Origin: a virus
Taxonomy: Duplodnaviria > Heunggongvirae > Uroviricota > Caudoviricetes
Length of the DNA: 14,162 nt
Virus record (IMG/VR): IMGVR_UViG_2713896908_000004
Reading direction: 5' to 3' (one strand)
The position numbers are program-made. Positions 10,601 through 13,600 of this stretch are shown piece by piece (within the stretch, counting starts at the first letter, position 1; every line of letters begins with the position of its first letter).

Positions 10601-13600
10601 GCGGTAAGCACTTTCTTGATACTTCAGGGCGCCAGCTGTAACGATTTCCAATCGATAGGCGTCTTTCTCTGGGATAACTTCTTTCCACTGAGAGACTGCT
10701 GCATCGCTAATGCCTAGTGCTTTAGCAACAGCACGCTGGGTTCCGAAGTGGTCAATAACATCTTTTTTGTACATAGACTCGCTCCGAAATTAAAGGGCAC
10801 TTAAATTATCTGCTAAAGGAATCTTAAGTCAAGTTTATTTAAGATGTCTTAACTATGAATACACAACTGATGGGTGAGCGTATTCGCGCTCGCAGAAAAG
10901 AACTCAAGATTAGGCAGGCTGCCCTTGGCAAGATGGTTGGCGTGTCTAATGTTGCTATTTCCCAATGGGAGCGATCTGAAACTGAGCCCAATGGCGAAAA
11001 CCTATTGGCCTTAGCCAAGGCTTTGCAGTGCTCCCCTGATTACCTGTTGAAAGGAGAGGATAGTCTTTCAAACATTGCCTATCACAGCAGGCATGCTCCA
11101 AGAGGTTCGTATCCTCTAATTAGTTGGGTAAGCGCAGGATGTTGGATGGAAGCTGTAGAGCCATATCATAGGCGTGCAATAGATAACTGGTACGACACAA
11201 CGGTAGATTGTTCTGAAGACTCTTTTTGGCTCGACGTTAAAGGCGACTCAATGACTGCCCCGGCAGGACTGAGTATTCCTGAGGGGATGATTATTCTCGT
11301 CGACCCAGAAGTCGAACCACGTAATGGAAAGCTGGTAGTCGCCAAACTTGAAGGAGAAAACGAGGCGACATTCAAAAAGTTAGTTATTGATGCCGGTAGA
11401 AAATTCCTGAAACCACTCAATCCACAATACCCAATGATTGAAATCAATGGGAACTGTAAAATCATTGGCGTTGTCGTTGATGCCAAGCTAGCAAACCTTC
11501 CTTAAGGGGCTTTCGCCCCTTTTTTATTTCCCGTTAAAAATCAAAGACAAACTAAATTCACGCCCATAAAATTAAGTTTTCTTCAAAAATACAGTTGACC
11601 TACAAATTAAGAAGTCTTAAATTTAAGCCATCAGCAGGACGCTGGAAGCCAAACGGAACAGATTGGCAGGCTCTTTAACATCGACGAACTCTCAACCTAA
11701 CCGTTGAGACCAGAACTTGAGTGGTTTTGGGGATGGCGCGAATTGCAGCTGCAAGACAGCGATCGAGAAGATAAGCACCTCGACGCGTCATGCGCCAAAG
11801 CCACTTAAAGGAGACCATCATGGTAACCATAGTCTGGAAAGAATCCAAAGGTACAGCAAAAAGCCGCTACAAAGCTCGCAGAGCAGAACTTATTGCCGAG
11901 CGACGAAGTAATGAAGCACTGGCGCGAAAAATTGCGCTAAAGCTCTCTGGTTGCGTCAGAGCAGACAAAGCAGCATCACTGGGAAGCCTTTGCTACAAGA
12001 AGAAAGAAGAATTCGTTCGAAAAAATAGAAGTATTTATTACAAGGATTCAAACCCATTAGGAAACAAAATACATGCAGTCCAAAAAATAAAATTGTACAG
12101 TAAACCACCGTACGGTGCTTATTGAGTATGCTTATGGTGAAAAAGACTATTTATGTTAATCCTGACCGCGGACAAAACAGAAAAGTATCTGATAGAGGCC
12201 TTACATCTCGAGACAGGAGGAGAATAGCGAGATGGGAAAAGAGGATAGCATATGCATTAAAAAACGGTGTAACACCTGGATTTAATGCTATAGATGACGG
12301 TCCTGAATATAAGATTAATGAAGACCCAATGGACAAAGTTGACAAAGCATTAGCAACACCATTTCCTCGCGATGTTGAAAAAATTGAAGATGAAAAATAT
12401 GAGGATGTAATGCACAGAGTTGTTAACCACGCTCACCAACGAAATCCAAATAAAAAATGGTCATAGCCCACTTCGATGGTTTTTTTTATTGTCTGAACTA
12501 ACCGAATTTATTACAGCAAGCCACGCAGTGAAATGGGTGTGACTTGTGTTGGTCGCCAGAAAATGAAATTAGGCAGCAAACCACTTATTTGAGGTGATAT
12601 ATGGAAGAACAGGCAAATAAGATTCTCATAGAACTATTGCAAAAAGCCAGTAATGGAATAGACACGGCTGTCTCATTTATCCAGGCACAGATTCCTGATG
12701 TTGTTCATCAGTTGCTGCTATGGAATATGGTTGACAGTCTGATTAAAACATTAATAGCCATTTTAACAATCCCGCTGGTTTTCTGGTTTATGAAGAAACA
12801 GTACCAAAAAGTTGAAATTGGTAAGTTCGATGATGAAGGATGGTCATGGGATAAGGGGAAGACTAAATACAAACCGACTATGATTTGGGAAAGTAACGGT
12901 GAGATTAGTTTTCTAATCTTACCATTAGCTGCAGTTTTTGTTCTGTGGGTAAATTTTATTATTGCTGTAGCAATCAATATGACTTGGTTAAAAATTTGGC
13001 TGGCCCCAAAGCTTTACCTTATCGAATATGCAGCATCATTGGTTAAGTAATTTTAGGCCGCATAGTCGGCCTTTATTTTTGGCATAAACAACAGAATAAA
13101 CACTGCACTGTGTATTCATTCCAACGAGTGAATACACGGAGCAATGTCGCTCGTAACTAAACAGGAGCCGACTTGTTCTGATTATTGGAAATCTTCTTTG
13201 CCCTCTAATGTGAGGGCGATTTTTTATCTATGAGGATATGAATAGATGTCAAACATCAAAAAATACATCATTGATTACGACTGGAAAGCATCAATAGAAA
13301 TTGAAATCGACCATGACGTAATGACAGAGGAAAAACTTCACCAGATTAATAATTTCTGGTCAGACTCTGAATACCGGCTCAATAAACACGGCTCTGTATT
13401 AAATGCTGTATTAATCATGCTGGCGCAACATGCTCTGCTTATAGCAATTTCAAGCGACTTAAATGCATATGGTGTTGTGTGTGAGTTCGACTGGAATGAT
13501 GGAAATGGTCAGGAAGGATGGCCTCCAATGGATGGTAGCGAAGGAATAAGAATTACCGATATCGATACATCAGGAATATTTGATTCAGATGATATGGCTA

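What the first reader, a model, noticed from the sequence alone, without database searches (positions are those of the whole stretch)
10775..11627. Operator half-site signature TTAAGA N2 TCTTAA at both OR and OL
Perfect 14-bp palindromes TTAAGATGTCTTAA (10839..10852, abutting the cI start) and TTAAGAAGTCTTAA (11607..11620, overlapping the PL -10) share the same half-sites. Further CTTAA/TTAAG half-sites lie nearby, including the self-complementary CTTAAATTTAAG at 11616..11627. This gives a candidate repressor recognition sequence for this immunity type.
Basis: seen in the sequence. Interest (0 to 1): 0.35.

Follow-up and report, generated by a model that had tools for sequence, protein, structure and literature searches.

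The report
Known P22/phage 21 repressor operators
The two palindromes are real and are the cores of the well-characterised 18-bp operator sites that the phage P22/phage 21 repressor and Cro bind to set the lysis-lysogeny switch, so the finding is correct but ordinary and already published.

Summary
They are the cores of two 18-bp operators of the P22/phage 21 immunity type. The published consensus is ATTTAAGATATCTTAAAT: TTAAG half-sites around a 4-bp centre that the repressor does not contact.

The window has the standard layout:
- OR1, OR2 and OR3 at 10789-10806, 10812-10829 and 10837-10854, between divergent cro and cI.
- OL3, OL2 and OL1 at 11541-11558, 11570-11587 and 11605-11622, over PL and upstream of N.

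These positions coincide with the six operators annotated in the phage 21 genome record (OL657228); OR2 there is drawn one base longer.

The repressor differs from phage 21 cI at one linker residue and is 94% identical to P22 c2. Cro is 100% identical to phage 21 Cro. Among 87 related loci, variation avoids the consensus operator positions.

CTTAAATTTAAG is not an operator; it is OL1's right arm plus an orphan half-site.

The only window-specific feature is a GGCA centre in OR1, where relatives have AACA. This may weaken repressor binding there.

Verdict: already known, low interest.

The parts
10589..10774 (-). cro gene (61 aa), P22-type Cro
   Evidence: Pfam P22_Cro, E=5.7e-28. 100% identical to phage 21 Cro and 98% to P22 Cro.
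10789..10806 (.). OR1 by the lambda convention (cro-proximal operator), ATTAAAGGGCACTTAAAT. It covers the last two bases of the PR -10 and the start region. Its centre is GGCA here and AACA in relatives.
   Evidence: Zero mismatches to ANTNAAGNNNNCTTNANT. Scores 16.0 bits with the P22-derived matrix. Same position as an annotated phage 21 operator.
10805..10832 (-). PR promoter: -35 TTGACT 10832-10827, 16-bp spacer, -10 GATAAT 10810-10805
   Evidence: 10 of 12 consensus matches. The same promoter is annotated in the mEp235 and HK629 records.
10812..10829 (.). OR2, GCTAAAGGAATCTTAAGT, lying over the PR spacer and part of the -35
   Evidence: One mismatch to the consensus pattern. Scores 15.2 bits. 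The phage 21 record annotates an operator at 10811-10829 in window coordinates.
10837..10854 (.). OR3 (cI-proximal operator), ATTTAAGATGTCTTAACT.
   Evidence: Zero mismatches. Top matrix score in the window, 19.6 bits. Identical to the phage 21 sequence and one central base different from P22.
10855..11505 (+). cI/c2 repressor gene (216 aa): HTH_3 DNA-binding domain plus S24 self-cleaving peptidase domain
   Evidence: Pfam HTH_3 and Peptidase_S24. One residue different from phage 21 cI and 94% identical to P22 c2. Residues 1-76 match PDB 1ADR, 2R1J and 3JXB at E down to 2e-39.
11504..11529 (+). Terminator-like hairpin with a T run, just after cI
   Evidence: Consensus scan. A terminator is annotated at the same place in phage 21.
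11541..11558 (.). OL3, TCAAAGACAAACTAAATT. A weak, degenerate site.
   Evidence: Positional equivalent of the annotated phage 21 OL3. Low matrix score: the one-base-shifted register 11540-11557 scores 6.3 bits, and the 11541-11558 register itself is outside the top 20 (below 6.15 bits). 0 of 9 symmetric positions. Its nominally contacted positions vary among relatives.
11570..11587 (.). OL2, AATTAAGTTTTCTTCAAA
   Evidence: One mismatch to the consensus pattern. Scores 15.1 bits. Annotated as OL2 in phage 21.
11595..11623 (+). PL promoter: -35 TTGACC 11595-11600, 17-bp spacer, -10 TAAATT 11618-11623
   Evidence: Consensus scan. The phage 21 record places the PL start at window position 11630.
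11605..11622 (.). OL1, AATTAAGAAGTCTTAAAT.
   Evidence: Zero mismatches. Scores 19.55 bits. Identical in phage 21 and P22. OL1 is the tightest natural P22 operator (PMC4267663).
11621..11627 (.). Not a full operator.
   Evidence: No partner CTT arm at the required spacing (sequence). P22 has ATTTTAG here.
11820..12125 (+). N antiterminator gene, the first gene of the PL operon controlled by OL
   Evidence: 96% identical to mEp235 N and 78% to phage 21 N, with an identical N-terminal part.

Best explanation
The two palindromes are the cores of OR3 and OL1, two of six 18-bp operators of the P22/phage 21 immunity type.

Inferred by homology with P22: dimers of the 216-aa repressor read an ATTTAAG-like arm in each half-site through their helix-turn-helix. 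They sense the uncontacted 4-bp centre indirectly.

Shown by the sequence: OR1 and OR2 lie over PR, and OL1 and OL2 lie over PL. Binding there would shut off cro and the replication genes rightward, and N leftward. OR3 abuts the cI start and would let high repressor or Cro levels turn down cI expression.

Cro (61 aa, P22 type) is expected to use the same sites to favour lytic growth. RecA-stimulated self-cleavage of the S24 domain would lift repression.
For: Shown here:
- The motif is non-random. The 14-mer has 2 hits against 0.01 expected. The 18-mer consensus has 5 hits at up to 1 mismatch, all in OR or OL, against 0.73 expected.
- A weight matrix built only from P22's six sites ranks the same five sites as the top five of the window.
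- The control regions align without gaps to phage 21 and P22 over all the operators. The phage 21 record OL657228 annotates OR and OL operators at these positions, with OR2 drawn one base longer. ES18 annotates C2-repressor binding regions there too.
- The repressor's DNA-binding domain (residues 1-68) is identical to phage 21 cI. It differs from the crystallised P22 c2 domain only at K16E, S54A and D68E. Cro is identical to phage 21 Cro.
- The promoters overlap the sites as in other lambdoid switches.
- Across 17 OR and 18 OL haplotypes, consensus-specified operator columns vary in 5 of 50 cases against 42 of 121 other columns (Fisher p=7e-4).

From the literature:
- P22 repressor binds six 18-bp symmetric sites, contacting positions 2-7 and 12-17. 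OL1 binds tightest, KD 5e-9 M (PMC4267663).
- The consensus is ATTTAAGATATCTTAAAT (PMC5175364).
- The P22 and phage 21 operators were published by Poteete et al. 1980 (cited in PMC1151598 and PMC6649833).
Against: - No binding experiment exists for this exact sequence.
- OR1 here has a GGCA centre that no listed relative shares except one near-identical contig. By P22 data, G/C centres bind 4- to 13-fold more weakly (PMC4267663).
- OL3 is a poor match and may not be functional.
- The operators overlap promoter hexamers, so part of their conservation could reflect promoter constraint.
- The haplotypes compared are closely related, so the Fisher test overstates independence.
- PRM was not located. 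No good -10/-35 pair was found upstream of cI.
- I could not read Poteete et al. 1980 itself.
Confidence: 0.95

Rival explanations
1. The complete recognition element is the 14-bp palindrome TTAAGA-N2-TCTTAA, present once at OR and once at OL.
For: The two perfect 14-mers are the two best-scoring sites in the window.
Against: Three further sites (OR1, OR2, OL2) match the 18-bp consensus but not the 14-mer. Positions 1-3 and 16-18 outside the 14-mer follow A-T-T/A-A-T and are conserved. Published structures show contacts at positions 2-7 and 12-17 of an 18-bp site, and the A and T next to the centre lie in the uncontacted region (PMC4267663, PMC5175364).
Confidence: 0.03
2. The palindromes are chance products of A/T-rich intergenic DNA or are conserved only as promoter elements, with no role in repressor binding.
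For: The regions are A/T-rich. OL1, OR1 and OR2 overlap the -10, spacer or -35 elements, which would conserve them on that account alone.
Against: 0 of 200 shuffles reach two 14-mer matches. OR3 overlaps no detected promoter hexamer yet is the best match and is nearly invariant. The same dyad recurs five times with the published symmetry. The cognate repressor domain is essentially that of the crystallised P22 c2-operator complex.
Confidence: 0.01
3. CTTAAATTTAAG (11616-11627) is an additional, seventh operator overlapping OL1.
For: It is self-complementary and contains two consensus pentamers. ATTTAAG at 11621-11627 is a perfect left arm and is kept in 17 of 18 haplotypes.
Against: The arms are in the reverse order (CTTAA then TTAAG) and 2 bp apart, instead of TTAAG-N4-CTTAA. 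The ATTTAAG arm has no CTT partner 4 bp downstream (sequence). No 18-bp window there scores among the top matrix hits. P22 has TTTTAG at this place. The phage 21 record does not annotate it.
Confidence: 0.03

Closest known systems
Operators OR1-3 and OL1-3 of coliphage 21 (imm21), as annotated in GenBank OL657228 and published by Poteete et al. 1980
   Same: Same positions and same number of sites. OR3, OL1, OL2 and OL3 have identical sequences. The Cro is identical, and the repressor is identical except for one linker residue, A81 in place of D81.
   Different: The OR1 centre is GGCA where phage 21 has AACA. OR2 starts GCT where phage 21 has ACC. A few spacer bases in PR and PL differ. The C-terminal part of N is of the mEp235 type, and a Nun-like gene follows it.
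Operators of Salmonella phage P22 immC bound by c2 repressor (PDB 2R1J, 3JXB; consensus ATTTAAGATATCTTAAAT)
   Same: Same 18-bp dyad and the same three-plus-three layout over PR/PRM and PL. OL1 is identical. The repressor is 94% identical, with an unchanged helix-turn-helix (PMC4267663; PMC5175364).
   Different: There are single-base differences in OR1, OR2, OR3 and OL2. OL3's right arm is CTAAATT here and CTTAAGT in P22. The flanking genes differ: N here shares only 34% identity with P22 gene 24.
Lambda cI/Cro operators (17-bp sites, three at OR and three at OL)
   Same: Same switch architecture: divergent cI and cro, three sites over PR/PRM, three over PL, and a repressor with an S24 self-cleavage domain (the C-terminal domain matches lambda cI structures).
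   Different: The recognition sequence and site length differ. Here the sites are 18 bp with the symmetry axis between two base pairs, while in lambda the axis falls on a base pair (PMC6649833). The two are heteroimmune.

Membership tests
P22/phage 21-type immunity operators (c2/cI21 repressor sites) | An 18-bp imperfect dyad matching ATTTAAGATATCTTAAAT, with conserved A1, T3, AAG5-7, CTT12-14, A16 and T18 | tested here: met
   Five sites at up to 1 mismatch, all in OR or OL, against 0.73 expected. They are the top five hits of a P22-derived matrix. The consensus is from PMC5175364.
P22/phage 21-type immunity operators (c2/cI21 repressor sites) | Three sites between divergent repressor and cro genes, overlapping PR | tested here: met
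   Sites at 10789-10806, 10812-10829 and 10837-10854 lie between cro (ends 10774) and cI (starts 10855). The PR hexamers are at 10805-10810 and 10827-10832.
P22/phage 21-type immunity operators (c2/cI21 repressor sites) | Three sites at OL overlapping PL, upstream of the N-type antiterminator | tested here: inconclusive
   OL1 and OL2 are clear. OL3 is present only as the positional equivalent of the annotated phage 21 OL3. Its motif score is weak: 6.3 bits in a one-base-shifted register, and below the top-20 cut-off in its own register.
P22/phage 21-type immunity operators (c2/cI21 repressor sites) | A cognate repressor with the P22 c2-type DNA-binding domain | tested here: met
   Residues 1-76 match PDB 1ADR at E=2e-39. 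Within the DNA-binding domain (residues 1-68) there are three substitutions, all outside the helix-turn-helix. The domain is identical to phage 21 cI.
P22/phage 21-type immunity operators (c2/cI21 repressor sites) | A cognate Cro of the P22 family | tested here: met
   Pfam P22_Cro at E=5.7e-28. 100% identical to phage 21 Cro.
P22/phage 21-type immunity operators (c2/cI21 repressor sites) | Positional orthology with experimentally defined or annotated operators of phage 21 and P22 | tested here: met
   Alignments with no gaps across the operators. The feature coordinates in OL657228 map onto the same window positions, with OR2 drawn one base longer. ES18 annotates C2-binding regions there.
P22/phage 21-type immunity operators (c2/cI21 repressor sites) | Physical binding by the repressor and Cro, and homoimmunity with phage 21 | not testable with these tools
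   This needs a footprint or gel-shift and an immunity cross-test.

The most novel reading that the evidence does not exclude
The window-private AA-to-GG change at uncontacted positions 8-9 of OR1, together with the changes at OR2 positions 1 and 3, retunes the switch. It would lower repressor (and perhaps Cro) affinity at PR through indirect readout. The prophage would then be repressed more weakly or induced more easily than phage 21, while remaining homoimmune with it.
Probability: 0.3. Interest if true: 0.2.

Novelty: already known. Interest (0 to 1): 0.08.

Why it matters
It matters little beyond annotation. Identifying the sites assigns this lambdoid element to the imm21/P22 immunity group, which is present in about 9% of complete E. 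coli genomes. That assignment predicts which phages it excludes and which repressors control it. The OR1 centre variant is a small natural test case for the indirect-readout rules worked out for P22 repressor.

Tried and rejected
- A sixth matrix hit outside the immunity region (3129-3146, ACTTAACAAATCTTTAAA, 14.2 bits) lies inside the Q gene. It falls within the range of shuffle maxima (mean 11.4, highest 18.5), so I treat it as chance.
- Alternative 18-bp registers around 10822-10844, overlapping OR2 and OR3, score only about 10 bits and were rejected.
- For OL3 I tried two registers, 11540-11557 and 11541-11558. Neither is a good dyad. I kept the one that is positionally equivalent to phage 21 and P22 OL3.
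- I looked for the exact OR sequence of this window in complete E. coli genomes. None matches; the best is 96.7%. In IMG/VR only one near-identical contig carries the OR1 GGCA variant.
- I tried to read Poteete et al. 1980 directly, but it is not held. Its content is therefore taken from papers that cite it and from the GenBank annotations. One search failed because a search term was too short.
- No convincing PRM hexamers were found by the consensus scan.

Full report
**Observation.** The sequence shows TTAAGATGTCTTAA at 10839-10852 and TTAAGAAGTCTTAA at 11607-11620, and CTTAAATTTAAG at 11616-11627, exactly as reported. The pattern TTAAGANNTCTTAA occurs only at these two places in the 14,162-base window. 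Chance expectation is 0.01, and none of 200 dinucleotide-preserving shuffles gave two matches. TTAAG/CTTAA pentamers occur 5 times in the 80-bp cro-cI interval and 4 times in the 109 bp after cI, against about 2 per kb overall.

**Genes around it.** The ORF at 10855-11505 (+, 216 aa) has an HTH_3 domain and an S24 peptidase domain. The ORF at 10589-10774 (-, 61 aa) is a P22-type Cro. Further left on the minus strand lie cII, O, P, the nin genes and Q. On the plus strand after cI come a terminator-like hairpin, a promoter (TTGACC, 17 bp, TAAATT at 11595-11623) and an N-type antiterminator gene. This is the early control region of a lambdoid phage, drawn in reverse orientation relative to the lambda map.

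**Identity of the region.** Window 10400-12200 is 98.4% identical to phages mEp235 and Kapi1. It is 97.6% identical to phage 21, lambda imm21 and DE3 over 91% of its length, and 83% identical to P22 and ES18 over cro, cI and OL.
- The repressor differs from phage 21 cI at one linker residue (A81 in place of D81) and is 94% identical to P22 c2.
- Its first 76 residues match the solved P22 c2 DNA-binding domain (PDB 1ADR, 2R1J, 3JXB) at E down to 2e-39. Within the DNA-binding domain (residues 1-68) the only changes are K16E, S54A and D68E.
- Cro is 100% identical to phage 21 Cro and 98% to P22 Cro.

**What the palindromes are.** P22 repressor recognises six naturally occurring, rotationally symmetric 18-bp sites. 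It contacts positions 2-7 and 12-17 and leaves positions 8-11 uncontacted. OL1 is the tightest site (PMC4267663). The published consensus is ATTTAAGATATCTTAAAT, with TTAAG half-sites separated by a 4-bp centre (PMC5175364, citing Watkins et al. 2008).

Searching the degenerate 18-mer ANTNAAGNNNNCTTNANT with up to one mismatch gives five sites, all in the two control regions, against 0.73 expected:
- 10789-10806, ATTAAAGGGCACTTAAAT
- 10812-10829, GCTAAAGGAATCTTAAGT
- 10837-10854, ATTTAAGATGTCTTAACT
- 11570-11587, AATTAAGTTTTCTTCAAA
- 11605-11622, AATTAAGAAGTCTTAAAT

A weight matrix built only from the six P22 sites ranks these same five as the top five positions of the window, at 15.1-19.6 bits. 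Maxima in shuffled sequence average 11.4 bits with an SD of 1.9, and the highest was 18.5. So the two best sites, OR3 and OL1, exceed every shuffle. The other three are about two SD above the mean shuffle maximum. Their support comes from clustering, position and orthology more than from score alone.

**Orthology with annotated operators.** The OR and OL regions align without gaps across the operators to phage 21, mEp235, HK629, N7, CUS-3, P22 and ES18. The phage 21 genome record (OL657228, announced in PMC9119081) annotates operators at locus positions 690-707, 712-730, 738-755, 1442-1459, 1471-1488 and 1506-1523. With the offset of 10,099 these are window 10789-10806, 10811-10829, 10837-10854, 11541-11558, 11570-11587 and 11605-11622. 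The ES18 record annotates the same intervals as C2-repressor binding regions similar to the P22 operators. The P22 and phage 21 operator sequences were published by Poteete, Ptashne, Ballivet and Eisen in 1980. I could confirm the reference (PMC1151598, PMC6649833) but not read the paper.

**Layout and likely mechanism.** I use the lambda convention for naming the sites.
- OR1 (10789-10806) overlaps the end of the PR -10 (GATAAT, 10810-10805 on the minus strand) and the start region.
- OR2 (10812-10829) covers the PR spacer and part of the -35 (TTGACT, 10832-10827).
- OR3 (10837-10854) abuts the cI ATG.
- OL1 covers the PL spacer and -10. OL2 lies just upstream of the -35. OL3 lies further upstream.

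The overlaps are shown by the sequence. The rest is inferred from the near-identity of the proteins and sites with P22 and phage 21, and was not measured here:
- Repressor dimers at OR1/OR2 and OL1/OL2 block PR and PL.
- OR3 down-regulates cI.
- Cro uses the same sites.
- RecA-stimulated self-cleavage lifts repression.

I did not find convincing PRM hexamers. There is also no room for a Shine-Dalgarno sequence between OR3 and the ATG, so a PRM transcript may be leaderless or nearly so, as in lambda. That is inference.

**Evolutionary test.** I collected 80 IMG/VR loci encoding repressors 98-100% identical to this one, plus seven phage records. The OR interval could be extracted from 87 of 89 sequences (88 loci plus the window), and OL from 53.
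- They give 17 distinct 80-bp OR haplotypes and 18 distinct 109-bp OL haplotypes.
- At OR, contacted positions vary in 4 of 36 columns, all in OR2. Centre positions vary in 6 of 12, and spacers in 7 of 26.
- Taking the consensus-specified columns of OR1-3, OL1 and OL2, 5 of 50 vary, against 42 of 121 other columns (Fisher p=7e-4).
- The haplotypes are related and the sites overlap promoters, so this is supporting evidence and not proof.

OL3 behaves differently. Its nominally contacted positions vary. Its right arm is CTTAAGT in P22-like phages but CTAAATT here and in phage 21. It scores 6.3 bits in a one-base-shifted register and lower still in its own register. It is at best a weak site.

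- The recognition unit is 18 bp, and there are three sites per operator.
- CTTAAATTTAAG is not an operator. It is OL1's right arm followed by an orphan ATTTAAG (11621-11627). The two pentamers are in the reverse order and only 2 bp apart, there is no CTT partner downstream, and P22 has TTTTAG there.

**What is particular to this window.**
- OR1 has GGCA at positions 8-11, where all other haplotypes have AACA or AATA. The one exception is a contig 99.6-99.9% identical to the window.
- OR2 begins GCT where phage 21 has ACC. This restores the consensus T at position 3.
- A few spacer bases of PR and PL also differ.
- None of the 488 complete E. coli genomes (of 5,426) that carry this OR type matches it exactly. 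The best match is 96.7%.
- In P22, G/C pairs at the centre lower repressor affinity 4- to 13-fold relative to A/T centres (PMC4267663, Table 1). This OR1 may therefore be a weaker site. That is a modest, untested possibility.

**Verdict.** The recognition sequence is the long-published P22/phage 21 operator consensus, and the sites are already annotated in the phage 21 genome record. Novelty is 'already known' and interest is low.

Noticed in passing
window 10796-10797 (OR1 positions 8-9): The OR1 centre reads GGCA here. All other haplotypes from the 87 related loci read AACA or AATA, apart from one near-identical IMG/VR contig. No complete E. coli genome has this exact OR. By the P22 indirect-readout data, this could weaken repressor binding at PR.
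   Followed up: partly
L001 (phage 21 record OL657228), locus 690-755 and 834-1406: The public phage 21 record labels the cro-proximal operator 'OR3' and labels both other sites 'OR2'. This is reversed or mistyped relative to the lambda convention. It also starts the repressor CDS at Met27 (190 aa), which would remove the first helices of the DNA-binding domain. The 216-aa start matches the solved P22 c2 structures.
   Followed up: partly
window 12128-12466 (+): The ORF just after N is 99% identical to the mEp235 protein annotated as a Nun transcription termination factor (HK022-type exclusion of lambda). It has no Pfam hit.
   Followed up: partly
window 11820-12125 (+): N looks mosaic. Its first 76 residues or so are identical to phage 21 N, so the same nut specificity is expected. 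Its C-terminal third follows mEp235 and not phage 21. The megablast match to phage 21 ends at about 12042.
   Followed up: partly
window 4003-4962 (+): An LpxR-family outer-membrane lipid A deacylase gene sits between Q and the nin region, on the strand opposite its neighbours. It is a moron-like cargo gene, also annotated in phage 434 and in E. coli prophages.
   Followed up: no
window 3129-3146: An operator-like 18-mer, ACTTAACAAATCTTTAAA, lies inside the Q gene. It scores 14.2 bits, within the range of shuffle maxima, so it is probably chance.
   Followed up: partly
window 9629-9640 versus L008: The otherwise 99.6-99.9% identical IMG/VR contig has about 115 extra bases in the O gene region, while the window shows a 12-base overlap of the two alignment blocks. 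This suggests a repeat-number (iteron-like) difference in the replication origin.
   Followed up: no
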